Shown here: positions 2,380 through 60,325 of the stretch, piece by piece | Layout of the letters: the number at the start of each line of letters is the position of its first letter | Numbering within the stretch: the first letter of the stretch is position 1 | IMG/VR virus record: IMGVR_UViG_3300006100_000010 | Length of the DNA: 64,000 bases | Strand: one strand, 5' to 3' | Origin: a virus | Lineage: Duplodnaviria; Heunggongvirae; Uroviricota; Caudoviricetes | Notes under the pieces: generated by a model | Seen by the model: only the letters and a program-made list of their open reading frames with translations | What the model was told of the DNA's origin: nothing | Database searches by the model: none | Program-made: the position numbers and the translations under genes

Positions 2380-3084
2380 TTAGTTATTCTTTGAAACAAT
2401 TTTCCAATTGGTAAAATTTTTACTTAAGCACCTTTTAGTAACAGCAGTTTCTGAAATGTTATATTTTTTTGCGCACTCCCGTCTAGTTGCGTATATATCA
2501 TCGTCTACTTGTATTTGTATTGCCATTCCATTTTTACTACCAAGTTTACTTTCACTTATCTTACGCCTAGTTTCATCTGACCATTTTCTTTTTTTTCCAG
2601 CAATAGCTAATTTATTTCTATACTCCAAACTATTAAAGATAGAAGTAGGGTCTGCCCAGATAGATTTAACTTTATCTGAAAGATGTGCAGCATCTCCAAA
2701 AAATTTATTTTTATTTTTCAAACTTAATTTTAATTTTACTTCATCTGAGTGTTTTCTACCCTTTAATGAATTTGACAAATTCTTTTTAAAATTATCAAGC
2801 TGCTGACTTGTATAATACCGAGTAGTCCAGCCTCCAGTTCCCCCAGCTGCAAGATTATACGAATTTTCTGAATAATAACTAATCCAAAATTTCTCTCTGA
2901 TATTTAATTCTTCAATAGATGAACAGGTTTCTATTAGCTCAACTTTAAAATTAGAGATTCCGTATTTTTTTATTGCTCTCCAAAGAATTTTACCTGATCC
3001 TAAATACTTATCAGTAAACTCTTTTTCACTTTTTCCAATATATACTTTAGAATTCAATAAATTTTTAGTTTTATAGATATACAT
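2380..3084 (-). CDS. GIY-YIG family homing endonuclease (free-standing) with a C-terminal NUMOD-like helix-turn-helix
   Basis: The N-terminus reads MYIYKTKNLLNSKVYIGKS (GIY...YIG), with downstream R and E residues (NIREKFW). The C-terminus has an HTH-like segment (RRECAKKYNISETAVTKRCL). It is inserted exactly between nrdA and nrdB. Confidence 0.7.
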   Translation of the reverse strand: MYIYKTKNLLNSKVYIGKSEKEFTDKYLGSGKILWRAIKKYGISNFKVELIETCSSIEELNIREKFWISYYSENSYNLAAGGTGGWTTRYYTSQQLDNFKKNLSNSLKGRKHSDEVKLKLSLKNKNKFFGDAAHLSDKVKSIWADPTSIFNSLEYRNKLAIAGKKRKWSDETRRKISESKLGSKNGMAIQIQVDDDIYATRRECAKKYNISETAVTKRCLSKNFTNWKIVSKNN

Positions 3085-10065: not shown

Positions 10066-12460
<2,395 letters not shown>

Positions 12461-13781: not shown

Positions 13782-14251
13782 TCTGAGTCAGTTATGTAGA
13801 TGTTGTTCTTTTCTCTGTATTCAAGTTCCTTGGCATACATTTTGCTAGGAAAAGAGTCAGCCATGCCAAGCTTTTCATTGTAGATTATACAATTTTCAAG
13901 CCATGGATTACTCATTTTATGCAAAGGTGTCCAAGTTAAAGGCTGAGTTCCGTCCTTTCCTCTTCCGCCTCGGTGAAAGCTCTCACGAATGACTTCAAAA
14001 GGAGCATCTGAGTAAACAGTAAGCTCTTCGTATGGAGCCGACTCATGCACGTTACGATGAAGGTAGTCATTACCGCCGTCTACCATGTAGGTCAGACCGT
14101 TTGCATCTTTATGTAGAGTAAAATCATGGCGATGCATCGATCTTAGTATGGTCCCGTCCGGCGTACGGATCTGATTTAGTACTATTTTTTTATCATTCAT
14201 GGATAAGGGATAATTGGTTTCGAATTTCAGCAGCTCTTTCGTAATTTTCAT
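13778..14251 (-). CDS. hypothetical protein (His-rich H-x-H-D ... H-x-x-x-H segment)
   Basis: 157-aa ORF that overlaps its neighbour by 4 nt, which suggests translational coupling. It contains SMHRHDF...DYLHRNVH, possibly a metal-binding site. The family is unassigned. Confidence 0.4.
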   Translation of the reverse strand: MKITKELLKFETNYPLSMNDKKIVLNQIRTPDGTILRSMHRHDFTLHKDANGLTYMVDGGNDYLHRNVHESAPYEELTVYSDAPFEVIRESFHRGGRGKDGTQPLTWTPLHKMSNPWLENCIIYNEKLGMADSFPSKMYAKELEYREKNNIYITDSE

Positions 14252-14963
14252 CAGCTACGGCATTGAGTAACTCAGCATTGAGTCGTTGAGAGTCAGTAGC
14301 AAGAGGAGCTTCATTCTGAAGGATCTTCACCCAAGCAGAAAGGTAGAGAATTAGGTTTTCCTTCTTTTGAAAGTACTCAGTAGGATACTCTTCAGTCACA
14401 GTTTCATCGTATATTGGTTCGACAATGGCCTTGTGTATCTTCTTGCCAAGGAGTCGTCCGATGAAAGAAGAGGAAGGTATTATTTCGGTACGCTCAGTCT
14501 GTCCAACCTTTACTCGATTCACTGTTTTTACCTTTTTGATTCCACTTGCTGCAAGTATTGCAGGATTTTCAAGGTACTCAAGGTGAACGATATCAGAACG
14601 AGTTAGACCGGCTGCTTCCAGGTCGCGAATTATTTTGGGAAGATCTTTACCTGTGATTGAGCACGAATTTTGTACTGCATTTTTCCAGGTCCAAGGAAGC
14701 TCCTTTTGGTTATTTTCTTTACGAGAAGCATTCACCGTTTTCATTACTAAAAACACGTCCTCTCTCATTTCATCGAGCTTGCTTGCGTTTATTCCAAGAA
14801 CTGCCTGTGAGACTACGCCGGCATTGCAGGAACACTGATTTGACCAGTCATAGAAAATTGTGTCATTCTTTAGAGCGTCAATCGCGATTATTAGCGAGTT
14901 TATTAATTTAGATTTACTTTCTTTCATCTCTATTTTTTTAAATAAGATACTATTATTTTGCAA
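14193..14963 (-). CDS. hypothetical protein with a C-terminal UVR-like motif
   Basis: 256 aa. The C-terminus reads AELLNAVADENYERAAEIRNQLSLI, which resembles the UvrB/UvrC UVR helical hairpin (EEAARLRDEI-type). The N-terminal region overlaps the upstream ORF, so the real start may be an internal Met. Confidence 0.35.
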   Translation of the reverse strand: MQNNSILFKKIEMKESKSKLINSLIIAIDALKNDTIFYDWSNQCSCNAGVVSQAVLGINASKLDEMREDVFLVMKTVNASRKENNQKELPWTWKNAVQNSCSITGKDLPKIIRDLEAAGLTRSDIVHLEYLENPAILAASGIKKVKTVNRVKVGQTERTEIIPSSSFIGRLLGKKIHKAIVEPIYDETVTEEYPTEYFQKKENLILYLSAWVKILQNEAPLATDSQRLNAELLNAVADENYERAAEIRNQLSLIHE

Positions 14964-14972
14964 ATAATTAAA

Positions 14973-16007
14973 TTAATCACTGTTCCATTCAAAGTGAAAT
15001 GGTGAAGTTTCCCTTTCCATTAGGTCTACATAGTCTTGTTTGCTATCCTCCTTATCTAAACGACTACGCAAATCAGTCTCTGCCTTTTTTTCTTTTGCTG
15101 CACGATCAAGAATCGGCTTGACCTTCTTTGAATAATCAATCTTCAGCTTTTTACAAAGATCAATTAACGGTTTCTTTGAATGGTCTGAATCAAAGTTATT
15201 GGCAATCAGGCGGATCCAAATATTAAATCGAGAGCGCATATCTGATTTTTTATCAAGCTCAACGTTCCACTTTTTTAGCTGATCCAGTAGAAATGGCACA
15301 TGCTCACTATTCCCATAGTTGACAAAAGAATATTGAAGGTGATTCTTTATTATGAATCGAGTGAGTTCATCCCAGCTTTCGTACTTTCCATATTGGTTAG
15401 TGCCTAAAAGTTTGGGAAAAAGAATAGATTTTAGGTAGGCTTCAGCAAATTGCGGTTCGTTATTAAATACATTGAAGCACTCATTCATTATATGAGAAAC
15501 TACTGAGTTTACTCTGTAATACTTGGAAGAAAGATCATCATCATATCGATTGGAAGCATATTGAAAGGACTCGCACCACTGAAATATTTGATAGACAGTG
15601 GAGCCCTGATCTGTCAAATAGCCATCGACTTCAAAATACTTACGTTCTTCTTTGCGAATCTCTTTTCCCCACATGTCTGGTAAGCCCTTCTTTTTTTCCT
15701 CAATTGCAGCATCTGCTTCCGGAGTCATCGTATATCGAATCTTGTCATATAACGCGATTGAAAATAGTGTAGTCTTTACTCGGCTGACTTCAGAATCAGA
15801 GCCAAGGAGCCAGTATGCACTGTTTCCAGACCTAGCTGACATTTCTGGAATTATGTCAAGACACAATAACTTAAGTCTATCTACTCGATCTCGAGTTTCC
15901 CATTTTGAGAAATCGGTGGATCCTGAATTAAGTTTAAGGGCAAGTGAGGTGATGCGATTGGCTGCCCAAATAGATTTTTCAATTCTTTCGTTATCGGATA
16001 GTCCCAT
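14973..16007 (-). CDS. hypothetical protein
   Basis: 344-aa ORF. I recognised no motifs. Confidence 0.4.
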   Translation of the reverse strand: MGLSDNERIEKSIWAANRITSLALKLNSGSTDFSKWETRDRVDRLKLLCLDIIPEMSARSGNSAYWLLGSDSEVSRVKTTLFSIALYDKIRYTMTPEADAAIEEKKKGLPDMWGKEIRKEERKYFEVDGYLTDQGSTVYQIFQWCESFQYASNRYDDDLSSKYYRVNSVVSHIMNECFNVFNNEPQFAEAYLKSILFPKLLGTNQYGKYESWDELTRFIIKNHLQYSFVNYGNSEHVPFLLDQLKKWNVELDKKSDMRSRFNIWIRLIANNFDSDHSKKPLIDLCKKLKIDYSKKVKPILDRAAKEKKAETDLRSRLDKEDSKQDYVDLMERETSPFHFEWNSD

Positions 16008-16008
16008 G

Positions 16009-16287
16009 TTAATTATTTAATGAAGTTGGCTTCATGAGTTTAGTATTGATTTCACTAAGCAGGTCATTTACCTGATAGTAAGAAAAAGGAGAAGGCTGTT
16101 CCAAAATTTCCGTAAGATGATTTATATGCATCTTAAGAAGAATTCTCAATTTTCGATCAAGTTCATCTAAACTGTCTCCTTGAACAATCATAGAAGGAAG
16201 ATTGACTGATTGAGCAACAAATCCTGAATCTTCAGTAATAACATACTTTATTGCCTCCTGTAATAAATTAGGTGCTTTATTATCCAT
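16009..16287 (-). CDS. hypothetical small protein
   Basis: 92-aa ORF in the operon. It overlaps the upstream gene by 8 nt. Confidence 0.35.
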   Translation of the reverse strand: MDNKAPNLLQEAIKYVITEDSGFVAQSVNLPSMIVQGDSLDELDRKLRILLKMHINHLTEILEQPSPFSYYQVNDLLSEINTKLMKPTSLNN

Positions 16288-16771
16288 GTGTATAGTATTT
16301 AGTTTCGATTAGCGTTCTTAGTGCCCCGACAGCCTCTCGATAATCATTGAATAGAGGAATTCCAAATCTGGTGCAGACAATATCAACGTTGCCCTTTCTC
16401 CAGAAGCTCTTAGGACAACATACAATCATCTTTTTAGAGTTTGCAAATAGTCCCAACTCAAGAAGAGAGATAGGTGATTTTGTTAGAGGACTAAAGTACA
16501 TAAAAATTATGTCGCTTTTCATTAGGTGAGTCAATTCCCAATTTACCTGATAATTAAATTGAGGATTAGTTTGATCCTGTTCCCAAGTAGAATCCCAATC
16601 GTCGCGTCTAGGATTAAAAAAAGCAACATCTTCCAGGTTAAGGTCCTTAAAGGAATCAGTAAGTGTAGTTTGCCAATCTTCAGCAGTGCCCATTTCAATA
16701 GAGCCTGCTAAAAAAATAGAGACCCGAACAAAATTCGGGTCTCCATCTGTAGGTTTATAAGTAGCTATCAT
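16280..16771 (-). CDS. DNPH1/Rcl-like 2'-deoxynucleoside 5'-phosphate N-hydrolase / nucleoside 2-deoxyribosyltransferase family protein
   Basis: The N-terminal VSIFLAGSIEMG matches DNPH1 VYFCGSIRGG and NDT IYFGAGWF. PISLLELGLFANSKKMIVCCP matches the catalytic-Glu segment (DNPH1 PSLGVGYELGRAVALGKPILCLF; NDT GLGMELGYALSQGKYVLLVIP). Confidence 0.55.
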   Translation of the reverse strand: MIATYKPTDGDPNFVRVSIFLAGSIEMGTAEDWQTTLTDSFKDLNLEDVAFFNPRRDDWDSTWEQDQTNPQFNYQVNWELTHLMKSDIIFMYFSPLTKSPISLLELGLFANSKKMIVCCPKSFWRKGNVDIVCTRFGIPLFNDYREAVGALRTLIETKYYTHG

Positions 16772-16791
16772 TTTTCTTTTTTGTATTCTAC

Positions 16792-18711
16792 TTATACGGT
16801 CTTAGTAGGATCTGCTGGAGCGTTTTGTTGTGGTGCCTTTTTAGAATTTAGCACTTCCAAGAGTTGCATTCCAAGGAGACCGCTGATAGAGCTATTTGCA
16901 GAATCTCCACCGCCTGAGATAAGCACTTCTGGTATGATTTTGATTCCGTTTTTACCGATTTCCTCAGTGATCTTGAATTTAGCAAAGTTGTCTCCACCCA
17001 TTGCTTTTACCTGTTGTTCATAGGCTTCAGCGGTTGACTTACCTATCGCTGCGATCTTTTTAGCTTCAGCGTCACCGGTGAGTTCTATTTGTTTTGCATC
17101 GGCTTCTGCGGTCATCACTTTTGCTTTTGCTTGAGCTGAGGCCTTTAGTTCAAGGGCTTTTGCTTCACCCTCAGATTTTTTAACTGCAGCTTCGGCTTCT
17201 CTTTGGGAGATTTCAACGGATTGCTGTGCTGCAACCATTTTTCCTTGCATGTCAGCCAGTGCCTTAGCTGATTCAAGAGTCTTACGTTGGTCTTGAGCTT
17301 TACGTTGAGTATCGTATGTCACCTTCTCTTCCTCTGCGATCTTACGATCGGTAAGAGTCTTCATCAGCGATTCTGGTGGCACAATATCTCCGATCAGGGT
17401 GTCTACTGCATGTACGTTGTATTCTTCTAGCACTTTGCTGATTGACTCCTTTGCAGCATCTTGGCGATTCTGTCTTGTAGAAAGGAATGAGATGACGTCT
17501 GAGTCTTGAGCAGAGTTACGGAAGTAGTTGCCGATTGTTGGTTCCAGAACTTGAGATACCAGATTCTGCATTGAACCGAATCTTGCGATCACTTTAGGCG
17601 CTTCGTTTGAAGGGATATGTATGATCTGGGATACGTCTAGGTTGAAAGGGAATCCGTCTTTAGAACGTACTGTGATTGTGCTCAGCTTTTCATCGAGTCG
17701 GTGGGACTCATTTCGACCGGATGCCCAGTTAAGTACGAGGTTAGTAGTTGGTACTACTTCTATTTTATGGGTGTATGGGTTTATTGCATACTTTCCAGGA
17801 TCAAGCGGAGTCGCCCAAACTCCTTTTTCTCCCTTACTTACGATATTTCCGTGCTTGAAGCTCTCACCGGTAACATCGGTTCCAACTTTTCCGACATATG
17901 CGATCACTACTCCTGCGCTACCTATCGGTATTTGAGTCATCGGCACCTTTTCTACCTGTACTGCCCATGGATTCAGGGAGTAGTTACCGGCTTGAATGAC
18001 CTGCTCTTGTAGACCACGTTGACCTCCACCTTCTAGGAACTTATCAAAGTCTTGGAAGTTGTTGTGTTTTTCAATTACGTTACCAGCAATCGTACCGATT
18101 TCAAGTTGTCTACCGTCAAGAGCAGTAATGACTCCGATTTGTCCGTCTTCGATATAGGTAAGATCTGCAACAGTCACATCAAATAAGAAGGTATTGATTC
18201 GGTAGACTCCGTTATTAAGGTAGCCTACCTGCTTACCTCTTTGTCCGCTATTGGAAAGAAAGGCAGTGGCATCTTGATAGTCATCGCAATCTACGTGTCT
18301 AGCAAGGATTGCACCTTTTGGAAGAGAGTCTCCATCCTTTGCTGAAAGCAATCCGATTTTACCTTTAGGGATCACTACAAGTGGTGATTGATCGATTGAA
18401 TATTGCCATGGCCAGTAGAACCAATAGAGACCTGGAGCAAGGGTCTTAGCTTGATAGCCTGGTTCTCCCTTTAGTGCAATGATCTTGCCATCGGGCATTG
18501 TTTTGTTTTCACCAAAGAGGACAAATTTTTTAGTCACCAGTCCGATCTTGTCCTCGGGAATTATTACCATTCCGAGTAGAGCGCGTAGGGTGAACTGATA
18601 GAAGACGAGTGCTAATACCGGAATTAGCAATAGAGCGTACGGTAGATAGTGTAAATACTGCATTTTGTGTTTTATAATTGTTAATGAAAAAATGTTAAGA
18701 TATGCTTGCAA
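16792..18711 (-). CDS. SPFH/band-7 (flotillin/YqiK-like) membrane protein
   Basis: An N-terminal TM helix (LHYLPYALLLIPVLALVFYQF) is followed by a long SPFH-type region. The C-terminus is an Ala/Glu/Lys-rich coiled coil (...EAEAAVKKSEGEAKALELKASAQAKAKVMTAEADAKQIELTGDAEAKK...), typical of flotillins. Confidence 0.65.
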   Translation of the reverse strand: MQAYLNIFSLTIIKHKMQYLHYLPYALLLIPVLALVFYQFTLRALLGMVIIPEDKIGLVTKKFVLFGENKTMPDGKIIALKGEPGYQAKTLAPGLYWFYWPWQYSIDQSPLVVIPKGKIGLLSAKDGDSLPKGAILARHVDCDDYQDATAFLSNSGQRGKQVGYLNNGVYRINTFLFDVTVADLTYIEDGQIGVITALDGRQLEIGTIAGNVIEKHNNFQDFDKFLEGGGQRGLQEQVIQAGNYSLNPWAVQVEKVPMTQIPIGSAGVVIAYVGKVGTDVTGESFKHGNIVSKGEKGVWATPLDPGKYAINPYTHKIEVVPTTNLVLNWASGRNESHRLDEKLSTITVRSKDGFPFNLDVSQIIHIPSNEAPKVIARFGSMQNLVSQVLEPTIGNYFRNSAQDSDVISFLSTRQNRQDAAKESISKVLEEYNVHAVDTLIGDIVPPESLMKTLTDRKIAEEEKVTYDTQRKAQDQRKTLESAKALADMQGKMVAAQQSVEISQREAEAAVKKSEGEAKALELKASAQAKAKVMTAEADAKQIELTGDAEAKKIAAIGKSTAEAYEQQVKAMGGDNFAKFKITEEIGKNGIKIIPEVLISGGGDSANSSISGLLGMQLLEVLNSKKAPQQNAPADPTKTV

Positions 18712-20281
18712 TTCTTTGACGGATTTCAGTTAGGGTCGTCTGGTTGTAGAATTTACCGTCTTCATAGATTGTATGTAGGAGACCTGTAGCTTCCTCTTCG
18801 TGAGTGCACTGAGTTTTTACCGCATATTCTCTGTCTTCTTCAAAGACTGCAACAAGACCCTTTAGAGATTTTTTAGTACCGTTATCTGTCACCGGATCCT
18901 TGTAGATGTCATACTCTTTTCCGTCAGCCTCAAACCAGGCACCTTTAGCAGCAAAGCCGAAAGTGTCACGTGTGTTGTATTGATATGTGTAAGATCCTAC
19001 ACCGAGTACAATATTAGTAGCGGCAAAACCTTTAGCTTCAAGACATTTGTAGATTTCTACTTGGCGGTCGAGCGTGATAGAATCGCCGTATATTGCTCCG
19101 ATATGCGGGTCAAGTACTTTGTAACCTTGTTCGTTTACTGTTCCTCCGAATATTTCCCAAAGTAGTTCTATAACTCCTTTGTGTTTTGGTTGATATACAT
19201 AATCTACAAAACCATCCTTAGTCTTAGTGTAATATTTTGTATTTTTATCCTCAAGGAAAATGAATTTTTCCCCTTCAGGAAGAATAAATGGTTTATTAAT
19301 ATCTTCCTTTTTGATAACTCGATATGGTTCAAATTCTCCACAAATAATATCTACAGGATCACCAGAGTCAGGACGTATTACGAGTTTACCGTCTCTTGCC
19401 ATAATAGCGTCTTTGTTAGCTGGAAGATACTTAGTAATAAGTGTCCACAAATCAAATGTATCTGCTACTATTGAAAGTATTCCTGTTGGAAAGTCTTGCA
19501 GCCAATCGGCAATCATTTGTTGCTCGCCTACTGTGAATATTTTAGTGGTTGACACTGAGTGTTCTGAGGCATTCACTGAACTGATGCAAACCTGATTTTC
19601 TGGCTCATCATAGAAATAGCGAGCAGCTGGGATCACGATAATTGTATCGGATCCCTTGTGTGAAGATGCATGACCTAGGCCAGAGGAGAGCATATCCCAA
19701 GGAGAAAGTCCGCGAGCACTAAAATCGTGAGCCATGTAGTCAATTAGCCATGCATTTTTAGAGTCAGTTTTCATTACCCACTCTACTAGGTTTCTACGGT
19801 ATTGTAGAGCAATTGTTGCTGATGTCGAAGGCTTCCATGCAAGAGAAGAAATGATTGTCTCCAAGTAAAGGGTCAGCCAGGCAAATCCGTCAACCGTATT
19901 GACAAATGTCATGTGAGGAATGTTTGGTAGAGTCTCGATACCTTCAGGTAAAGATTTTACCCTGACTGGTAGGTATTGAAGATCATGAAGAGCCTCAAAG
20001 TGAGAGGCATCATATGGCATGCCAAGGTATGCAGAAATGTCCATACCGAACTTTACTGCAGATTCCTTAGGGAGGGCAAAAAAGTTTTCTGCATATTCAT
20101 CGTGTAACCAGCGCATGACCAGTTGTTGGCCGAAGGATACGATCTTTTTAATGTTTCCTGGAGCGTATTTTACGCTTCTTGGAATCCAGGTGCCGTAAAG
20201 TTTTGTTGTTCCTTTAGCGAGCATTCTCCTGTGGCCGAGCTTATAGCCATCGGCATACCATATTGCAGGGGGTTTAAACAT
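18695..20281 (-). CDS. nicotinamide phosphoribosyltransferase family protein (NAMPT/NadV-like; could equally be the Namat-type nicotinamide ADP-ribose transferase of phage NARP1)
   Basis: 528 aa. The N-terminus reads ...WYADGYKLGHRRM... Overall it resembles type II phosphoribosyltransferases of the NAMPT family, and it lies adjacent to a Prs-like gene. Confidence 0.7.
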   Translation of the reverse strand: MFKPPAIWYADGYKLGHRRMLAKGTTKLYGTWIPRSVKYAPGNIKKIVSFGQQLVMRWLHDEYAENFFALPKESAVKFGMDISAYLGMPYDASHFEALHDLQYLPVRVKSLPEGIETLPNIPHMTFVNTVDGFAWLTLYLETIISSLAWKPSTSATIALQYRRNLVEWVMKTDSKNAWLIDYMAHDFSARGLSPWDMLSSGLGHASSHKGSDTIIVIPAARYFYDEPENQVCISSVNASEHSVSTTKIFTVGEQQMIADWLQDFPTGILSIVADTFDLWTLITKYLPANKDAIMARDGKLVIRPDSGDPVDIICGEFEPYRVIKKEDINKPFILPEGEKFIFLEDKNTKYYTKTKDGFVDYVYQPKHKGVIELLWEIFGGTVNEQGYKVLDPHIGAIYGDSITLDRQVEIYKCLEAKGFAATNIVLGVGSYTYQYNTRDTFGFAAKGAWFEADGKEYDIYKDPVTDNGTKKSLKGLVAVFEEDREYAVKTQCTHEEEATGLLHTIYEDGKFYNQTTLTEIRQRIASIS

Positions 20282-20290
20282 AGTTTGTTT

Positions 20291-20779
20291 TTACTTTTTA
20301 AATATTACTATAGTTACTATACAATCTTTTAGCTCACGTTTAATGATGTGCTTGATTTTTTCCCAGTCTCCACCAGCAAGACCTGCGCCAATCATCGGTA
20401 GCCCAATGTGCAAGCCTTTGTATTTTTGATTGATCTTACGCATGCAAAGTGTGATTGCCTCGTAATCTACTGGTGTGTCAACTCCATCTGTATGATTTTT
20501 TCCATAGGAGTATTGAGTGTATGCATTGATCACAAAGACACCTCTTTCCATGTCCATGCGAGAGATGAGATGGGCTTCTATTTGACCCAGTTTATTGATG
20601 TCACCTTTGTACTTTATATCTTCTAGTGGAAATAGGTCACAGCCAAAGGCAGAGGCCATTTGTGGAGCCAATCCTGCTCCCATTGTGCAAAGGCAGTTGC
20701 AACCGTGCGCAATCACATCAAATTTTCCTTCTTTAGCTAGGGCAATTAGATCCCCATAAACTTCGGTGTAGTTATTCAT
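20291..20779 (-). CDS. macro domain protein (ADP-ribose binding/processing)
   Basis: ...FDVIAHGCNCLCTMGAGLAPQMASAFG... matches the macro-domain ADP-ribose binding loop (N-x-x-N...G-G-G-V/A...). 162 aa. Confidence 0.6.
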   Translation of the reverse strand: MNNYTEVYGDLIALAKEGKFDVIAHGCNCLCTMGAGLAPQMASAFGCDLFPLEDIKYKGDINKLGQIEAHLISRMDMERGVFVINAYTQYSYGKNHTDGVDTPVDYEAITLCMRKINQKYKGLHIGLPMIGAGLAGGDWEKIKHIIKRELKDCIVTIVIFKK

Positions 20780-20793
20780 TTAGATAGATGTTT

Positions 20794-21669
20794 TTAGAAT
20801 ATTCCAAGTTGAGTGACTAACGGATCAGTTATGTCTGAGTAGCTATTGCTGCAGTAGATTCCGTCTAGCGACTTGCGCAAGTCATCAAGCCCTGCTGAGA
20901 ATATTCCGTGTGAGATGATTAGATATGTCTTGCCAGTTCTTTCAGGTTGAGTCCTTTTGATCTCATCTGCAATGTTTAAGAAGGTGCGACCGCCGTCACA
21001 AATGTCATCGATGATGACCAAGTTTTTTGAGAAGTGGTCAATACGATAAGGAACATGGGTCTTACTGAGTTTACCATCGGTGCCTCTGTATTTGCTACAG
21101 GTGAGTATTTCACCGTCAAATTTTAGAGAACTTGCAACCTTGTAGATCTTTTTTAGACTGCCTCCATCCGGTGAAACAAAAATGCAGGTGTTAAGAAACT
21201 CAGCAGGTGTGCAGTTTTGCTTTTCAGCTTCTCGTGAGATGAATGCAGTCACTAGTGATGTGTTATCGAGTACCTTAAGTCGGTTGATGCAGGCAGCGGC
21301 AACGTCTGAGTGCACGTCAAAGCACAGCACTTGCTTAAAGTTTAGAGAGTTTAGGATTGGCGCAATAACGTCACGAAGGTAAGAAGTACCTCCATTAACA
21401 AACTGACGGTCGCTACGTGCTCCAAGTATGTATGGAACATAGAGGGTAATTTCCTCTATTCCCAAATTTCTCAGTGCCTTGGTCGCACAGATAATTATCT
21501 CAAGATCCCGGAATGAATTGAACCTAGATCGGATTGTGATAGGTTCGGTGAGTGAGGTCGGTACTCTTGGATAATCGATAATAGTTACGTCCTGTTGCCC
21601 GTCTGGAAAACTGGAAATTTTGTAATTAATGTCTGAGCTATTCGGTTGTACTAGATTTAGGATTTTCAT
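20794..21669 (-). CDS. ribose-phosphate pyrophosphokinase-like protein (Prs family; possibly the Adps-type ADP-ribose diphosphokinase of NARP1)
   Basis: PRTase-type PRPP-binding loop VIIDDICDGGRT, an upstream Prs-like segment YVPYILGARSDR, and a length of 291 aa. Confidence 0.65.
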   Translation of the reverse strand: MKILNLVQPNSSDINYKISSFPDGQQDVTIIDYPRVPTSLTEPITIRSRFNSFRDLEIIICATKALRNLGIEEITLYVPYILGARSDRQFVNGGTSYLRDVIAPILNSLNFKQVLCFDVHSDVAAACINRLKVLDNTSLVTAFISREAEKQNCTPAEFLNTCIFVSPDGGSLKKIYKVASSLKFDGEILTCSKYRGTDGKLSKTHVPYRIDHFSKNLVIIDDICDGGRTFLNIADEIKRTQPERTGKTYLIISHGIFSAGLDDLRKSLDGIYCSNSYSDITDPLVTQLGIF

Positions 21670-22643
21670 TCTTCAAAATTAAGTTTTAGTGGAGTAATTA
21701 AGAGTCTTCTATCAATACTATAATCGTGTATCTGGTTTAGGTCTTGACGATATTTGAGTAGAGCTAGATCCTTGGCCTTTGCCTCTATTTCAACATCTGC
21801 AACTATGTCATAGTCGGGTATGACCTCATACACGTAATCTGAGTGGGAACGAGCAAGTAGAGTAGCATCTTCGTATATCTTAGAACTGCTATAGTGTTGT
21901 AACGGTGTCACCTTATCCCAAGTACGAGCTGCAAGGTGAGCTGCGTCCCTAGCAGTAAGGTCGCCTGTGCAAAATCTGTGGTGCAGATGATCAAACGTGA
22001 TGGAACAGGCAGTATTTATATAGACAAGATCGTATAGATCCTTTACGCTGAACTGGCTTGCTTTGTCGTCGTTTTCTACAACCAGCCTCTTTTGTGTTGA
22101 TTCAGCTAGCCTTTTGAAATTTTCACAGAATCGAGCAGCAGCAGACTCCTTATCACCATAGGTGCCACCGATGTGTATGTTTATTGCAGAATAACGATTT
22201 GCTGGAAGTCCCATCATGTCCATGATACGTGCATGCTGATCAAGATCGCATATTGTCTTAGTGACGATGCTTTCAGTAGGGGATGCAAGAACGTCAAACT
22301 GACCGGGGTGAAAGGTTAGCCTAAGGTTATGGGTGTGGGCAAGCTCTCCGATCTTGTGAGCTATTTCACAGAGTGCAGCATAGTTGGGCAGGTCCTCAAA
22401 CCGATACTCGCTCATCCAAGGAAAAATATCACTGGACATGCGATAGACCCTTATGTCCTGGGTAATGTTCCACTGTAGGATCCGGTACATGTCATGTAAG
22501 TTTTGCTCAGCAAGCAGTGCAGCATGTGCAATGCCTTGGGTTTGCCAAGTCTTTTTAATCATACCACGGTTAGTGGTGATTCCCTTGTCCTTTAAGGTAA
22601 GGTTTATGCAGCAGTATCCTAATCTCATGTAACTATAGTACAC
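21666..22643 (-). CDS. uvdE: UV damage endonuclease (UvdE/UVDE family)
   Basis: The N-terminus reads MRLGYCCINLTL, as in UVDE (RLGYVC...). It has a TIM-barrel-type length of 325 aa and conserved H/E/D-rich segments. It is the first gene of the minus-strand operon. Confidence 0.65.
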   Translation of the reverse strand: MYYSYMRLGYCCINLTLKDKGITTNRGMIKKTWQTQGIAHAALLAEQNLHDMYRILQWNITQDIRVYRMSSDIFPWMSEYRFEDLPNYAALCEIAHKIGELAHTHNLRLTFHPGQFDVLASPTESIVTKTICDLDQHARIMDMMGLPANRYSAINIHIGGTYGDKESAAARFCENFKRLAESTQKRLVVENDDKASQFSVKDLYDLVYINTACSITFDHLHHRFCTGDLTARDAAHLAARTWDKVTPLQHYSSSKIYEDATLLARSHSDYVYEVIPDYDIVADVEIEAKAKDLALLKYRQDLNQIHDYSIDRRLLITPLKLNFEE

Positions 22644-22886
22644 TAAATCCGGTGTCTTTAAAAAATTCCCGCGTACGGGCGCCTGGGAGTAGTACTAGAG
22701 TAACACTATAGTATAATTAAAGAAAGAATAAAGTAAGTAGCTAGTACTATATAGCTACACCCACCCACCACCCTAGTTATACTAGTGAAAAATGTGATGG
22801 TTTTAAAAAATAAATACTTTATATTAGATGAAACTATTTTTCTATCCCAGTGTATAACTTGATTAGGCTTAAAATAATTCCTATGA
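22644..22886. promoter_or_regulatory. divergent intergenic control region between the minus-strand operon (uvdE first) and the plus-strand late module
   Basis: 243 bp non-coding, the largest non-coding gap in the window. It contains a GC-rich island (CCCGCGTACGGGCGCCTGGG) in an AT-rich genome, the palindrome TAGTACTA, the inverted repeat GTAGCTA-gtactata-TAGCTAC, a CACCCACCCACCACCC tract, and AT-rich stretches that are candidate promoters in both directions. Confidence 0.5.
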
Positions 22887-23546
22887 ATGACCATTATCAG
22901 CATCGACTTTTCAATATTGTACCCTGGAGCATGCATCTGTCGCGATTTTAAAGAATTTAAGTGGATCGCACTAGCTAATACTACAGTTCGTAAAAAAGAT
23001 TCTGATAATTACGATTACATTAATTCAACATATCCAAATATCCAGATCCTAAGAACCACTTCAAGAAGGAAAAAAGAACAAGAGTACCATCTTACTGAAA
23101 GAACCAAGCTGATCAATTACCTTGAAGCTATCTACATGTTTGTCAGTGCTATTGAAAATGAAGTAAAAGGGGAAGAGTGTATGGTTTGCATAGAAGGAAT
23201 CTCATTTGGGTCAAGCGGTAACTCACTAGTAGATATTGCTCAGGCCACTGGGATCCTAAAACAGCAGCTCATCTCCAGAATACTTAATTTCAATCACGAC
23301 AAGCTTTTTGTATTTAGCCCAAGCGAACTTAAAAACGCAATTGGCTGTAAAGGCAACGCAAACAAACAAGACATTCTAGCTAAATTTAAAAGTGACCCAA
23401 TCATCGAATCTGTAAAGGAGTCTGACCTATTTAAGCTTATTAACAAAGAGCAATGGGTAATAGAAGGGGATAAGATCCTTTCACCGATCATCGATATGGT
23501 AGATGCCTATTTAGGTGTGACCAAGATCCATGGTCTCCTAAAATAA
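22887..23546 (+). CDS. putative RuvC-like Holliday junction resolvase (RNase H fold)
   Basis: The N-terminus reads MTIISIDFS (RuvC/A22-like first catalytic Asp in an I-x-I-D-x-G/S context). A central ...VCIEGISFG... supplies an acidic residue. The C-terminus reads IDMVDAYLG (the D-x-x-D-A motif of RuvC). Confidence 0.4.
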   Translation: MTIISIDFSILYPGACICRDFKEFKWIALANTTVRKKDSDNYDYINSTYPNIQILRTTSRRKKEQEYHLTERTKLINYLEAIYMFVSAIENEVKGEECMVCIEGISFGSSGNSLVDIAQATGILKQQLISRILNFNHDKLFVFSPSELKNAIGCKGNANKQDILAKFKSDPIIESVKESDLFKLINKEQWVIEGDKILSPIIDMVDAYLGVTKIHGLLK

Positions 23547-23555
23547 TCCAAAAGG

Positions 23556-23954
23556 ATGGCTAGAAAAAAACGTGGTGACAAAGACTACATCAATAACAAC
23601 GATTTCACCGATGAAATAATAAAGTGTAAAAAGGCAGGGAAGCTAAGCGCTGCTGCGATTGACAGTTTTATTATTCTTGCAAATAGAGCAGTAGTTCGTC
23701 TCTACTTTAGGGATGATCGCGACAGGGAAGATTGTGTACAGTCTGCAATATTCGATTGTATTAAGTATTGGCAGAGTTTTGACGAGACCAGATCTGCAAA
23801 ACCCAATGCCTTTGCCTATTTTACACAGTTATGTAAAAATGGGTATGCTAAAGAGTGGAAAAAGATCCACAAGAAGACCGGACTGGATAAAGACGAGACG
23901 CTAGAATTCCTATCACTTAGCACCAGCGGTGAAAGTTCAATTTACAGCATCTAA
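23556..23954 (+). CDS. T4 gp55-like late-transcription sigma factor (sigma region 2 only)
   Basis: 132 aa. Segments align with T4 gp55: NNDFTDEIIKCKKAG with NNKELLQAIIDWKTE, DSFIILANRAVVRLYF with DTIGLAIMLIAEGLSKRF, and KPNAFAYFTQLCKNGYAKEWKK with [21 protein letters not shown]. It sits at the head of the structural gene array. Confidence 0.65.
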   Translation: MARKKRGDKDYINNNDFTDEIIKCKKAGKLSAAAIDSFIILANRAVVRLYFRDDRDREDCVQSAIFDCIKYWQSFDETRSAKPNAFAYFTQLCKNGYAKEWKKIHKKTGLDKDETLEFLSLSTSGESSIYSI

Positions 23955-54223: not shown

Positions 54224-54638
54224 GTGGACCGGGTGGGAGTTGAACCCACGTCTTGCTCGACTAGTAGAAAGGACTCATTCACAAGCTTACTCAGTTTACG
54301 ACACTGACAAACTTTTTGGTTTTCGGGGTAGTTTATGAAGAGTTTCCTTCTCTTCCTCATGACGGCTATCTACATGCCTACACGTCTTTCCGTAGTGTCT
54401 TCTGGCTTCCGATCTATTGATCGTACCTCCAATTTGTGACTTTCTGTTCCTAGGCAGTCACCGCCCGGTGCTTAGGCAGCTATTGCTACTTCTGCGCCAA
54501 CGAAAGACATTGCGTCTTCGAAGGTAAATGTTGACTTAGCGTCGTTTGTATTCTGCATTGGGGATTAACGAGTTTCAATGCTAACTCAGCTTGCATCATC
54601 TCAATGAACTAACGCCGCCAATCAATACCCGGCCGGCC
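54224..54638 (-). ncRNA. ssrA: tmRNA (ssrA), phage-encoded
   Basis: At the minus-strand 3' end a T-arm (GTGGG-TTCAACT-CCCAC) is directly followed by the acceptor 3' strand CCGGTCC, then A, C. The 5' end (GGGCCGG) pairs with it, giving a 7-bp acceptor stem with a G3:U70 wobble (Ala identity). About 125 nt from the 5' end an ORF-like tag reads GCA ATG TCT TTC GTT GGC GCA GAA GTA GCA ATA GCT GCC TAA, ending ...VAIAA-stop (ALAA-like). A GAAGAC/GTCTTC-type helix precedes it. Total length about 415 nt. Confidence 0.6.
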
Positions 54639-54734
54639 CATATTGGAAAGATCTGATTTATCTATCCGTAGTATTTTATCTAATATACTAAATCGGTTTC
54701 AACAGAATAAATAAAATAAACAATATTTAGGTAA

Positions 54735-59698: not shown

Positions 59699-60325
59699 AT
59701 GGGATATGAGAAAATTAATCTGATCAACAACGCAAGAATCCAAGAAATTTCAGAAAAACTACTAACCAGCGAAATAACAGAAAGAGAAAGAAACGAATTA
59801 GCAACTCTAATCTCTCCAAAGCTTAAAAACTTCATCTGGAAATTCTGTAGAAATGAATTTGATACTGAGGAATCTCTTCAGTGGACTCTAAAAAAGATCT
59901 TCAAAAACGCTTCGCAATTCGATTTTAGTAAAGGCAGGTTTACTACCTGGATATACACGATTGCAAGAAACGAAACCTTGTATTACCTACATTACAAGAA
60001 GAAGAGCTCGGTGCAAGACATAGACGCTCACTATTCTGTTCAAGAAAGAATAGCAGATGATGGGTCTATTATTGAAAGCAAAAAATTACTGGATGACATT
60101 TATGATGTTGTCGTCCATGAGATCAATCAAATAGAGGATGACCTCTTAAGATCCATTGCAGTTGATAAAATGCTACTTAACAAGAAAGTAAAGCAGATCG
60201 CAAGTGATTATGAGCTAAATGAGAACACCGTTAAAACTAAACTGCGTAAGATACGTTACGATGTTCGATTAGCTGTACTCAAGGGAAATCCACAACTTGA
60301 GCAAAAAATACAAGACTTATTATGA
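59699..60325 (+). CDS. ECF-type sigma-70 family sigma factor
   Basis: Region 2 reads FDFSKGRFTTWIYTIARNETLYYL (ECF consensus F..W..IARN). Region 4.2-like reads ...LNENTVKTKLRKIRYDVRLAVL (helix-turn-helix, TVK.RL.R.R pattern). 208 aa. Confidence 0.6.
   Translation: MGYEKINLINNARIQEISEKLLTSEITERERNELATLISPKLKNFIWKFCRNEFDTEESLQWTLKKIFKNASQFDFSKGRFTTWIYTIARNETLYYLHYKKKSSVQDIDAHYSVQERIADDGSIIESKKLLDDIYDVVVHEINQIEDDLLRSIAVDKMLLNKKVKQIASDYELNENTVKTKLRKIRYDVRLAVLKGNPQLEQKIQDLL

What the first reader, a model, noticed from the sequence alone, without database searches (positions are those of the whole stretch)
18695..21669. Prs-like, macro-domain and NAMPT-like gene trio resembling a phage NAD+ reconstitution pathway with an inserted ADP-ribose-processing macro domain
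A ribose-phosphate-pyrophosphokinase-family gene and a NAMPT-family gene sit two genes apart in one tightly coupled operon. No NMN adenylyltransferase is visible anywhere in the window. This pairing is the signature of the recently described phage NARP1 counter-defence. In NARP1 a Prs homologue (Adps) pyrophosphorylates ADP-ribose, and a NAMPT homologue (Namat) joins it to nicotinamide, rebuilding NAD+ after depletion by Thoeris, DSR, SIR2 or TIR-type immunity. Here a macro domain, a dedicated ADP-ribose binder or hydrolase, is inserted between the two. That suggests an extra substrate-processing step, for example converting ADPR-1''-phosphate, O-acyl-ADPR or a cyclic-ADPR-type signal into ADPR. 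I have not seen that described as part of these pathways. The alternative is ordinary PRPP plus nicotinamide to NMN salvage, as with KVP40 NadV.
Basis: partly seen in the sequence, partly recalled or inferred. Interest (0 to 1): 0.75.

Follow-up and report, generated by a model that had tools for sequence, protein, structure and literature searches.

The report
Phage NAD+ rebuilding operon with phosphatase
This uncultivated phage carries a three-gene operon of an already described kind (NARP1-AP) that probably rebuilds NAD+ after bacterial immunity destroys it; the new lead is a fourth, uncharacterised enzyme gene that repeatedly travels with such operons.

Summary
Three minus-strand ORFs at exactly the stated coordinates (291, 162 and 528 aa) lie 14 and 9 nt apart.

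By sequence they are Adps, Adpp and Namat, not Prs and NAMPT.
- The 528-aa protein has the published Namat signature (GSYTYQYNTRD). It scores 396 bits against the SpβL1 Namat structure, versus about 136 bits against human NAMPT.
- The 291-aa protein falls below the curated Prs cut-off and keeps the residues mapped in the ICP1 Adps structure.
- The macro protein scores 118 bits against a profile of published NARP1-associated macro phosphatases and keeps the mutated histidine.

No NMNAT is found in the window. Gene order and sizes match the tested Vibrio phage Gary operon. Its novelty claim is not, because NARP1-AP was described in a January 2026 preprint.

A new lead lies outside the coordinates. 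A PF15891 nucleoside-2-deoxyribosyltransferase-like gene (16280..16771) sits beside Adps or Namat in 70 of 80 related viral loci, in at least eight gene orders. In bacteria it sits beside or between Adps and Namat in NrtR-headed operons. I found no paper linking it to NARP1.

Verdict: a new member of a known kind. Interest is low to moderate.

The parts
20794..21669 (-). Adps homologue (291 aa): a PRPS-fold enzyme predicted to convert ADP-ribose and ATP into ADPR-pyrophosphate and AMP
   Evidence: ORF. It falls below every curated Prs cut-off (TIGR01251 70 bits against 113). phrog_619 scores 9e-52. Identity is 53% to Leptolyngbya phage Lbo-JY46, 30-34% to the Gary, ICP1 and Bas62 Adps, and 24% to E. 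coli Prs. Against solved Prs chains it scores only 25-51 bits. The residues mapped in the ICP1 Adps structure are kept: F21, R85, F90, H120, D168, K193, D221, D222, D225 and F230. It is 291 aa against 315 aa for E. coli Prs, consistent with loss of the C-terminal alpha11-alpha12 module.
20291..20779 (-). Adpp homologue (162 aa): a macro-domain protein predicted to dephosphorylate ADPR-1''-phosphate to ADPR
   Evidence: It scores 117.8 bits (E 8e-35) against an HMM built from 13 published NARP1-associated macro proteins, and is the only window ORF that hits that HMM. It is 34% identical to the biochemically characterised Gary Adpp (3e-23). H25 aligns with Gary H24, which was mutated in the paper's loss-of-function set. 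The invariant family residues H25, N28, G36, Q89, P128, G131 and G136 are present. A family profile hits yeast Poa1p, an ADPR-1''-P phosphatase (6LFU), at 3.6e-11.
18695..20281 (-). Namat homologue (528 aa): a NAMPT-fold enzyme predicted to join nicotinamide to ADPR-PP, giving NAD+
   Evidence: The Namat-specific selectivity-clamp helix motif GSxΦxΦxΦTRD is present as GSYTYQYNTRD at residues 429-439. The selectivity-clamp loop has K38-Y39, the Bas63 type. It scores 396 bits against 9W5X/9W5W, the SpβL1 Namat, versus 132-157 bits against solved NAMPT structures. It scores 288-688 bits against Adps-associated Namat and 100-141 bits against Nmnat-associated phage Nampt. The catalytic His241 aligns with Gary H243.
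16280..16771 (-). PF15891 (Nuc_deoxyri_tr2) protein, 163 aa: a probable accessory of the NAD+/ADPR module, with unknown substrate (inferred, not shown)
16792..18663 (-). SPFH/Band-7 membrane protein (623 aa from the ATG at 18663; the ORF extends to a TTG at 18711): a recurrent neighbour lying between Namat and the PF15891 gene, role unknown
   Evidence: PF01145 scores 4.4e-26. The public gene call is 623 aa. The same Namat-SPFH-PF15891 order, with 73-81% identity, occurs in about a dozen IMG/VR loci, for example L120, L124, L147, L151, L175 and L179. It is absent from the closest syntenic relative L092, so it may be a passenger.

Best explanation
The trio is a NARP1-AP counter-defence operon (NAD+ reconstitution pathway 1 with an associated phosphatase) in an uncultivated, distantly T4-like myovirus.

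When a host NADase-type defence splits NAD+, the pathway is inferred to run as follows:
- The 291-aa Adps pyrophosphorylates ADP-ribose with ATP to give ADPR-PP.
- The 528-aa Namat joins ADPR-PP to nicotinamide to regenerate NAD+.
- If the defence is of the RES type, which makes ADPR-1''-phosphate instead of ADPR, the 162-aa macro protein Adpp first removes the 1''-phosphate so that Adps can use the product.

What is shown here: gene presence, tight co-directional packing, lineage membership by sequence, and retention of the published catalytic and specificity residues. All enzymatic activities are inferred by homology to the characterised Gary, SpβL1, Bas63 and ICP1 proteins. Whether the host has such defences is unknown.
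For: Anatomy:
- Three co-directional ORFs lie 14 and 9 nt apart. No promoter-like or terminator-like enrichment separates them from their neighbours.
- The order and sizes, Adps-Adpp-Namat at 291/162/528 aa, match the experimentally validated Gary operon at 290/158/537 aa.

Namat:
- The signature motif and the Bas63-type clamp loop are present.
- Scores are about three times higher against Namat than against NAMPT or NARP2 Nampt.

Adps:
- It is below the Prs cut-offs and closer to Adps than to Prs.
- All ICP1 structural residues are conserved. These include F90 and F230, which are V and L in E. coli Prs.

Adpp:
- It scores 117.8 bits against the profile of published NARP1-associated macro proteins, and the mutated histidine is conserved.
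- The positions that align with TARG1 K84 and D125 are Q89 and A135.

Context:
- No NMNAT is in the window.
- A macro gene accompanies Adps in 19 of 49 dereplicated related viral loci.
Against: - No biochemistry exists for these proteins. Identity to the characterised enzymes is only 30-41%.
- The Pfam Macro hit is just below threshold.
- The macro family is not exclusive to NARP1. The closest isolate homologue (Cellulophaga phage phi17:2, 49%) and two of three close IMG/VR homologues (L010, L012) have no Adps or Namat nearby. The family occurs in 2805 phage records, against 1206 for Adps.
- Macro relatives 2FG1 and 5E3B, which share the Q at the TARG1-lysine position, score higher than Poa1p, so the substrate cannot be fixed by sequence.
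- Namat enzymes keep some PRPP-dependent NMN synthesis in vitro.
- Only 64 kb of a contig of at least 126 kb was examined for NMNAT.
- It is unknown whether the host carries aRES or other NADase defences.
Confidence: 0.8

Rival explanations
1. Ordinary nicotinamide salvage. The 291-aa protein is a dedicated PRPP synthetase and the 528-aa protein is a NadV-type NAMPT that makes NMN. A host or distant phage NMNAT finishes NAD+ synthesis, as in KVP40 or NARP2-like logic.
For: Both proteins hit the Prs and NAPRTase/NAMPT family models. Namat enzymes retain about half of NAMPT's NMN-forming activity in vitro. Only part of the genome was inspected for NMNAT.
Against: - The Prs-like protein is far below every curated Prs cut-off.
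- The NAMPT-like protein carries the Namat-specific aromatic clamp, which all four Nmnat-associated phage Nampt sequences examined lack (GxGGxLLQ instead).
- Scores are about three times higher against Namat than against NAMPT.
- The literature reports a Namat beside 97% of Adps-clade genes, and NARP2 Nampt in phages that lack Adps.
- No NMNAT is in the window.
Confidence: 0.05
2. The Adps/Namat pair is NARP1, but the macro protein works on a different ADP-ribose derivative. Candidates are ADP-ribosylated protein or DNA (DarT-type), O-acetyl-ADPR, or Appr-1''p from Tpt1/KptA-type RNA repair. On this reading it sits in the operon only because NAD/ADPR-related genes cluster in this genome region.
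For: - There are weak hits to the DarG macro domain (26.9 bits in NCBIfam, 25.8 bits in PADLOC).
- The best solved relatives are the uncharacterised BT1257 protein (2FG1/2AFC) and 5E3B (deposited only as a macrodomain protein), plus TARG1/OARD1, ahead of Poa1p.
- The closest homologues outside this lineage are not NARP1-linked.
- Related loci mix NARP1 with RNA-repair genes (Thg1, CCA-adding enzyme, HAD_SAK_2) and NADAR. Bacterial versions include Tpt1/KptA.
Against: - It scores 117.8 bits against the profile of NARP1-associated macro proteins, and the functionally tested His is conserved.
- It occupies the same slot between Adps and Namat as in the operon where deleting the macro gene abolished anti-aRES activity.
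- The positions aligned with the TARG1 catalytic K84 and D125 are Q and A. The catalytic role of those two residues is from my own knowledge of the TARG1 literature.
- ADPR-1''P from RNA repair and from RES enzymes is the same molecule, so this rival partly collapses into the main explanation.
Confidence: 0.13

Closest known systems
NARP1-AP of Vibrio phage Gary (Adps-Adpp-Namat; Osterman et al., bioRxiv 10.64898/2026.01.28.702374)
   Same: The gene order is the same and the sizes are nearly identical (290/158/537 aa against 291/162/528 aa). All three proteins are homologous: 30%, 34% and 41% identity. The three residues mutated in the paper are conserved: Adps K192 = K193, Namat H243 = H241, Adpp H24 = H25. 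The Namat carries the same insertion of about 48 residues relative to SpβL1.
   Different: The host phage is unrelated: an uncultivated, distantly T4-like myovirus rather than a T5-like Demerecviridae phage. Its terminase is at most 35% identical to anything in the isolate collection. Sequence identity to Gary is low. No activity data exist. This locus also has a PF15891 gene and an SPFH gene immediately downstream, which the Gary operon's annotated flanks do not show. The Gary flanks were included in the tblastn check, but only hits to the Adps, Adpp and Namat genes were printed for that locus.
Two-gene NARP1 (Bas63, SpβL1, ICP1; Osterman et al. 2024; structures in PMC12774641 and PMC13586617)
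   Same: The Adps and Namat lineages, the specificity motif and the catalytic residues are the same.
   Different: Here a macro phosphatase is inserted between the two genes. That should extend the substrate range to ADPR-1''-phosphate.
NARP1 with RyDEP (mycobacteriophage DyoEdafos; bioRxiv 10.64898/2026.05.28.727677)
   Same: The logic is the same: an accessory enzyme inside a NARP1 operon converts a non-canonical NAD+ product into linear ADPR.
   Different: The accessory there is a RyR-domain O-glycosidase that acts on 2'/3'cADPR. Here it is a macro phosphatase, plus a candidate PF15891 enzyme.
NARP2 / KVP40 NadV-NatV salvage
   Same: It uses a NAMPT-fold enzyme and rebuilds NAD+ during infection.
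   Different: NARP2 needs an NMNAT and uses PRPP. Its Nampt lacks the aromatic clamp. None of the NARP2-defining features was found here.
Bacterial nrtR-prs-nadV operons (Rodionov et al. 2008, PMC2330246) and bacterial NARP1 (PMC12774641)
   Same: They hold the same Adps/Namat pair. In Bacteroidota versions the PF15891 gene sits beside or between the two core genes. NADAR, Tpt1/KptA, ADP-ribosylglycohydrolase, PARG or PnuC lie alongside.
   Different: They are chromosomal and headed by a gene for the ADP-ribose-responsive NrtR repressor. They presumably serve housekeeping or stress recycling rather than counter-defence.

Membership tests
NARP1 (Adps + Namat) | A PRPS-fold protein of the Adps clade, distinct from housekeeping Prs | tested here: met
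   It is below the TIGR01251 cut-off (70 bits against 113). It scores 103-249 bits against Adps of Gary, ICP1, Bas62 and Lbo-JY46, versus 25-51 bits against solved or E. coli Prs. The ICP1 structure residues are conserved, including the Adps-typical F90, the DDICD PP loop and F230. No formal tree with many Prs sequences was built.
NARP1 (Adps + Namat) | A NAMPT-fold protein with the Namat selectivity-clamp helix motif GSxΦxΦxΦTRD and a stacking residue in the clamp loop | tested here: met
   GSYTYQYNTRD at residues 429-439, and K38-Y39 in the loop. Nmnat-associated Nampt sequences show GxGGxLLQxxxRD instead.
NARP1 (Adps + Namat) | The adps and namat genes lie in immediate proximity | tested here: met
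   They are separated only by the 162-aa gene and lie on the same strand, with gaps of 14 and 9 nt.
NARP1 (Adps + Namat) | ADPR + ATP gives ADPR-PP, and ADPR-PP + nicotinamide gives NAD+ | not testable with these tools
   This needs purified proteins with LC-MS or an NAD-Glo assay.
NARP1-AP | A macro-domain gene within two genes of the NARP1 pair (the operational definition used by Osterman et al. 2026) | tested here: met
   The macro gene lies between Adps and Namat. Pfam PF01661 scores 21.1 bits, just under the cut-off of 22, but solved macro domains hit at 1.6e-8 and the family profile reaches 2.8e-22.
NARP1-AP | The macro protein is homologous to the characterised Adpp and keeps the residue whose mutation abolishes function | tested here: met
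   It scores 117.8 bits against an HMM of 13 published Adpp-type proteins. It is 34% identical to Gary Adpp. H25 equals Gary H24.
NARP1-AP | ADPR-1''-phosphate phosphatase activity and rescue from aRES defence | not testable with these tools
   This needs an enzyme assay and plaque assays.
NARP2 (Nampt + Nmnat) | An NMN adenylyltransferase is encoded, and the Nampt belongs to the Nmnat-associated clade | tested here: not met
   No NMNAT domain is in any window ORF of 100 aa or more. The protein scores only 100-141 bits (25-30% identity) against four Nmnat-associated Nampt sequences. The rest of the genome was not seen.
Housekeeping ribose-phosphate pyrophosphokinase (Prs) | Reaches the curated NCBIfam/TIGRFAM Prs score and has the full-length C-terminal regulatory module | tested here: not met
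   The best Prs model gives 70 bits against a cut-off of 113, and the equivalog models give 26-58 bits against cut-offs of 296-536. The protein is 291 aa, with a shorter C-terminus than E. coli Prs.
TARG1/DarG-type macro de-ADP-ribosylases | A catalytic Lys (TARG1 K84, DarG K80) and Asp (TARG1 D125). The roles of these residues are from my own knowledge of the literature. | tested here: not met
   In the profile alignment to 4J5R, the invariant Q89 falls on the first K of TARG1 'TKK', and A135 falls on the D of 'GLDRLQW'. The DarG model scores only 26.9 bits against a cut-off of 250.

The most novel reading that the evidence does not exclude
The functional unit may be larger than the trio. On this reading the PF15891 (DrHyd/TIR-class, nucleoside-2-deoxyribosyltransferase-like) enzyme at 16280..16771 is a third kind of substrate-feeding accessory of NARP1, alongside the macro phosphatase Adpp and the RyR glycosidase RyDEP.

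It would cleave an N-glycosidic bond in a non-canonical NAD+-derived nucleotide. Candidate substrates are N-linked cyclic or conjugated ADPR species such as cADPR, N7-cADPR or His-ADPR, which would yield ADPR, or NMN/NR, which would yield nicotinamide. This would widen the range of NAD+-targeting defences the phage can undo.

Support is contextual only:
- It lies beside Adps or Namat in 70 of 80 viral loci, in at least eight gene orders.
- It is at a different slot, and only 51% identical, in a syntenic relative whose flanking genes are 70-80% identical.
- It lies beside or between Adps and Namat in NrtR-headed bacterial operons that also hold NADAR, Tpt1/KptA, ADP-ribosylglycohydrolase, PARG or PnuC.
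- It is fused to an ART-PolyVal ADP-ribosyltransferase domain in a jumbo-phage polyvalent protein.
Probability: 0.35. Interest if true: 0.65.

Novelty: new member of a known kind. Interest (0 to 1): 0.3.

Why it matters
As given, the finding mainly extends a pathway published in 2026 to a very different phage lineage: an uncultivated freshwater-metagenome myovirus with no close isolate relative. This supports the view that NAD+ reconstitution, including its phosphatase-extended form, is widespread outside enterobacterial and Vibrio phages.

The more useful outcome is the lead it exposed. An uncharacterised PF15891 enzyme is the commonest accessory of NARP1 in this environmental lineage (25 of 49 dereplicated loci, against 19 for the macro phosphatase). 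It is also embedded in ADP-ribose-regulated Adps/Namat operons of cultured Bacteroidota such as Chitinophaga rupis DSM 21039.

If it processes another NAD+ breakdown product or immune signal, that would point to a further mode of NAD+-based immunity and its countermeasure. It could be tested directly with a cultured organism and purified proteins.

Tried and rejected
- Near-identity DNA search of 18000-23000 against 50,697 phage records found no match, so no annotated relative could be borrowed.
- The PDB copy holds the SpβL1 Namat but no Adps entry, so Adps residues were mapped by alignment to the ICP1 sequence and checked against the paper's numbering.
- The PADLOC scan gave only weak DarG (25.8 bits) and PRTase_III-A (19.1 bits) hits, with no sign that the locus is a defence system.
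- The promoter/terminator scan of 14000-23600 gave fewer promoter-like sites than shuffles and no internal minus-strand terminator, so it does not delimit the operon.
- I looked for NARP1 genes beside the PF15891 homologues of four isolate phages (RsoM2USA, CcrColossus, Tunturi_5, Slickus01) and found none. The link is therefore lineage-restricted among isolates.
- I checked the Cellulophaga phage macro gene across the circular junction and found no NARP1 there.
- I searched for PF15891 fusions to Adps, Adpp or Namat in 174 viral loci and found none, only one Adps-Namat fusion.
- YtoQ, the second-best structural match of the PF15891 model, has no characterised function in the papers searched.
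- Literature searches for PF15891 or deoxyribosyltransferase together with NARP1 found nothing.
- The ARAGORN tmRNA call is not supported by the Rfam gathering scan.
- I considered and dropped structure prediction of Adps and Adpp. Residue-level mapping to published structures already answered the question, and no ligand docking tool was available.
Full report
**Observation.** The three ORFs exist exactly as described, all on the minus strand: 20794..21669 (291 aa), 20291..20779 (162 aa) and 18695..20281 (528 aa).
- The gaps between them are 14 and 9 nt.
- The upstream UvdE gene (21666..22643) overlaps the first ORF by 4 nt.
- The co-directional array continues downstream through an SPFH/Band-7 gene (16792..18663), a PF15891 gene (16280..16771) and further genes.
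- A consensus scan found no excess of promoter-like sites and no internal minus-strand terminator.
- Profile searches place the 528-aa protein in the NAPRTase/NAMPT family (PF04095, PRK09198 at 431 bits, phrog_448) and the 291-aa protein in the Prs fold, but far below every curated Prs cut-off. The 162-aa protein is a macro domain. It is marginal in Pfam, clear in PHROGs and clear against solved macro domains.

**What the window is.** It comes from a large phage.
- It encodes ribonucleotide reductase subunits, a GroEL-like chaperonin, a T4-type terminase, a T4 gp15-like tail protein and sigma-factor-like proteins.
- There is no near-identical DNA in 50,697 phage records, and the terminase is at most 35% identical to any isolate.
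- The same proteins occur on public metagenome contigs: JGI 3300025789 and 3300006105, Logan SRR5260555 and SRR5261474, and ENA ERZ27271958. The longest of these is 125.9 kb.
- The host is unknown.

**Literature.**
- The two-gene NARP1 pathway (Adps + Namat) was described in 2024.
- In January 2026 the same laboratory reported that RES-domain defence proteins (aRES) cleave NAD+ to nicotinamide and ADPR-1''-phosphate, which NARP1 cannot use.
- They also reported that 15% of 859 NARP1 operons carry a macro-domain gene, Adpp, that dephosphorylates ADPR-1''P to ADPR.
- The three-gene operon Adps-phosphatase-Namat of Vibrio phage Gary overcame aRES, and inactivating any of the three genes abolished this.
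- A second accessory, the RyR-domain glycosidase RyDEP, converts 2'/3'cADPR to ADPR inside a mycobacteriophage NARP1 operon.

**Membership tests: Namat.**
- The structural paper defines a selectivity clamp. Its helix carries GSxΦxΦxΦTRD with aromatic x, and its loop provides a further stacking residue.
- The window protein has GSYTYQYNTRD at 429-439 and K38-Y39 in the loop, the Bas63 type.
- It scores 396 bits against 9W5X/9W5W, which the paper identifies as SpβL1 Namat. This compares with 132-157 bits against solved NAMPT structures.
- It scores 288-688 bits against five Adps-associated Namat proteins and 100-141 bits against four Nmnat-associated phage Nampt. The latter carry GxGGxLLQ at the motif position.

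**Membership tests: Adps.**
- In an alignment with Adps of Gary, ICP1, Bas62 and Lbo-JY46 and with E. coli Prs, identities are 31, 30, 34, 53 and 24%.
- Every residue highlighted in the ICP1 structures has its counterpart, and the ICP1 numbering in my alignment matches the paper:

| ICP1 Adps | Window protein |
|---|---|
| F18 | F21 |
| R87 | R85 |
| F92 | F90 |
| H121 | H120 |
| D161 | D168 |
| K185 | K193 |
| D212 / D213 / D216 | D221 / D222 / D225 |
| F221 | F230 |

- F90 and F230 are V and L in E. coli Prs, and the PP loop reads DDICD rather than DDMID.

**Membership tests: Adpp.**
- An HMM built from 13 non-redundant macro proteins in the paper's Table S1 scores the window protein at 117.8 bits. 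It hits no other window ORF.
- H25 corresponds to the Gary residue mutated as H24A.
- A family profile reaches Poa1p at 3.6e-11. It aligns the invariant Q89 and A135 with the positions of TARG1 K84 and D125.

**Membership tests: NMNAT and gene order.**
- No window ORF of 100 aa or more has an NMNAT-type domain.
- The Gary operon has the same order and nearly the same sizes.

**Conclusion on the trio.** It is a new member of NARP1-AP. The pathway steps are inferred by homology. Nothing here demonstrates activity, and the macro family is not exclusive to NARP1: its closest isolate relative in Cellulophaga phages, and two close viral-contig relatives, have no NARP1 genes nearby. The step ADPR-1''P to ADPR is therefore less certain than the Adps/Namat core.

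**Beyond the coordinates: the PF15891 gene in viral contigs.** While collecting related loci I found that the PF15891 (Nuc_deoxyri_tr2) gene two genes downstream of Namat is recurrently tied to NARP1.
- In 77 IMG/VR loci seeded with the Adps protein (49 clusters at 90% identity), Namat is present in 44, the PF15891 gene in 25, Adpp in 19, and both accessories in 14.
- In 80 loci seeded with the PF15891 protein (55-71% identity), 70 have Adps or Namat in the flank, and 49 of the 54 loci with at least 5 kb on both sides do.
- The median gap is 332 bp. The maximum is 2.1 kb, which occurs where an SPFH gene intervenes, as in the window.
- The gene occupies at least eight different positions relative to the core genes.
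- In L092, a syntenic relative whose flanking genes are 70-80% identical to the window, the PF15891 gene lies between Adps and Adpp and is only 51% identical. This points to independent recruitment or replacement.

**Beyond the coordinates: bacteria, a fusion and the fold.**
- Among bacterial species representatives, 13 of the best 80 PF15891 loci have the gene beside Adps and/or Namat homologues. In 12 of these the Namat motif is present.
- These operons begin with an NrtR regulator gene. They also contain NADAR and Tpt1/KptA (Chitinophaga rupis), ADP-ribosylglycohydrolase and PnuC (a Bacteroidota MAG), or a microbial PARG (Hydrocarboniphaga).
- nrtR-prs-nadV operons have been known since 2008, but PF15891 is not mentioned in that paper. 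That ADP-ribose is the NrtR effector is from my own knowledge of that paper; the passages I read do not state it.
- In the jumbo phage Tunturi_5 the domain is fused to an ART-PolyVal ADP-ribosyltransferase domain.
- E105 in SLLELG, where this superfamily places its nucleophile (my own knowledge), is invariant. E79, NPRR 53-56 and N128 are nearly invariant, at 96% or more.
- No paper in the searchable library links PF15891 or a deoxyribosyltransferase-like protein to NARP1. A 2022 survey stated that viral DrHyd domains are only of the ADP-ribosyl-cyclase type.
- Four isolate phages with PF15891 homologues do not have it next to NARP1.
- I therefore treat a functional role in NAD+/ADPR processing as a contextual inference (probability about 0.35 for a substrate-feeding role), not a finding.

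**Other accessory content in related loci** includes NADAR, DUF1937, Thg1, a CCA-adding enzyme and a HAD_SAK_2 RNA-repair phosphatase. A HAD-like 147-aa family co-occurs with Adpp in only 1 of 12 clusters (Fisher p = 0.017). That would fit an alternative phosphatase, but it is untested.

**Verdict.**
- Classification: a new member of a known kind (NARP1-AP).
- Interest is low for the trio itself. It is raised modestly by the PF15891 lead, which can be tested in vitro and in a cultured bacterium.

Noticed in passing
window 16280..16771 (-): A PF15891 nucleoside-2-deoxyribosyltransferase-like gene lies two genes downstream of Namat. It sits beside Adps or Namat in 70 of 80 related IMG/VR loci, in at least eight gene orders. 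It is the commonest NARP1 accessory in this lineage: 25 of 49 dereplicated loci, against 19 for the macro gene. I found no literature link to NARP1.
   Followed up: yes
window 16792..18711 (-): An SPFH/Band-7 membrane protein (623 aa from the ATG at 18663) recurs between Namat and the PF15891 gene in about a dozen viral loci. Its identity there is 73-81%, higher than that of the neighbouring enzymes. It is absent from the closest syntenic relative. Its role is unknown.
   Followed up: partly
L092 6048-10418 (IMGVR_UViG_3300035703_000009, 207 kb): This is a syntenic relative of the window, with the order RuvC-like, UvdE, Adps, PF15891, Adpp, Namat and then the GroEL-like gene. Its flanking genes are 70-80% identical to the window. 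Its PF15891 gene sits in a different slot and is only 51% identical, which suggests independent recruitment at the NARP1 locus.
   Followed up: partly
L239 3631-8261 (Chitinophaga rupis DSM 21039, NZ_FOBB01000001); L242 5043-12585; L230 2865-8912: These bacterial chromosomal operons have the PF15891 gene beside or between Adps-like and Namat-like genes (Namat motif GSYTYEYVTRD). L239 reads NrtR-Namat-NADAR-Tpt1/KptA-PF15891-Adps. L242 reads NrtR-Adps-x-PF15891-Namat-ADP-ribosylglycohydrolase-TonB receptor-PnuC. L230 reads PARG-PF15891-Namat.
   Followed up: partly
L015 4959-8747 (Tunturiibacter phage Tunturi_5, PP885688): A 1262-aa protein next to the portal gene fuses a PF15891 domain (residues 16-115) to an ART-PolyVal ADP-ribosyltransferase domain (residues 207-380). 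This is an independent link between PF15891 and NAD+/ADP-ribose chemistry.
   Followed up: partly
related IMG/VR loci, e.g. L109 7779-8222, L038 4993-5433: A 147-aa family with a HAD-like DxDxT motif and no Pfam hit lies between Adps and Namat in 12 of 49 clusters. It co-occurs with the macro gene in only one of them (Fisher p = 0.017). It may be an alternative phosphatase.
   Followed up: no
related IMG/VR loci, e.g. L057 10546-11040, L082 9463-10308, L055 12773-13513, L067 10618-11196, L028 1564-1938: NARP1 loci of relatives also hold NADAR, Thg1, a CCA-adding enzyme, a HAD_SAK_2 RNA-repair phosphatase and a DUF1937 (NDT-like) gene. This mixes ADPR-processing and RNA-repair functions around the pathway.
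   Followed up: partly
window 54224..54639 (-): ARAGORN calls a 416-nt tmRNA with the tag peptide DAKSTFTFEDAMSFVGAEVAIAA. The Rfam gathering-threshold scan of the whole window reports no RNA family, so the call is unsupported.
   Followed up: partly
window 18695..20281 (-), residues about 319-366: The Namat has an insertion of about 48 residues relative to the crystallised SpβL1 Namat. The insertion lies between the IRPDSGDP motif and the C-terminal half and is shared with the Vibrio phage Gary Namat.
   Followed up: no
L093 6992-9412; L011 362-1285 and 2632-4176: L093 has a single stop-to-stop ORF that contains both Adps and Namat, a natural fusion. L011 has a LAGLIDADG-type endonuclease gene after Adps, and its Namat is split into two ORFs.
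   Followed up: no
window 21666..22643 (-): A UvdE UV-damage endonuclease gene overlaps the Adps start by 4 nt and heads the leftward gene array. UvdE is also immediately upstream of Adps in L092 and lies within a few kb of Adps in L023 and L050.
   Followed up: no
window 10066..11706 (-), 23556..23954 (+), 59699..60325 (+), 2380..3084 (-): The window holds a phage-encoded GroEL-like chaperonin, two sigma-70 region-2-like proteins, and a NUMOD3 homing-endonuclease-like gene between the two ribonucleotide reductase subunit genes.
   Followed up: no
L001 4817-9026 (Leptolyngbya phage Lbo-JY46, PP438436): This is the closest isolate NARP1 (Namat 62-63% identical, Adps 46-53% depending on the method). 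Its order is inverted, Namat-x-x-Adps. The two intervening proteins of about 250 aa have no Pfam hit, and there is no macro gene.
   Followed up: no
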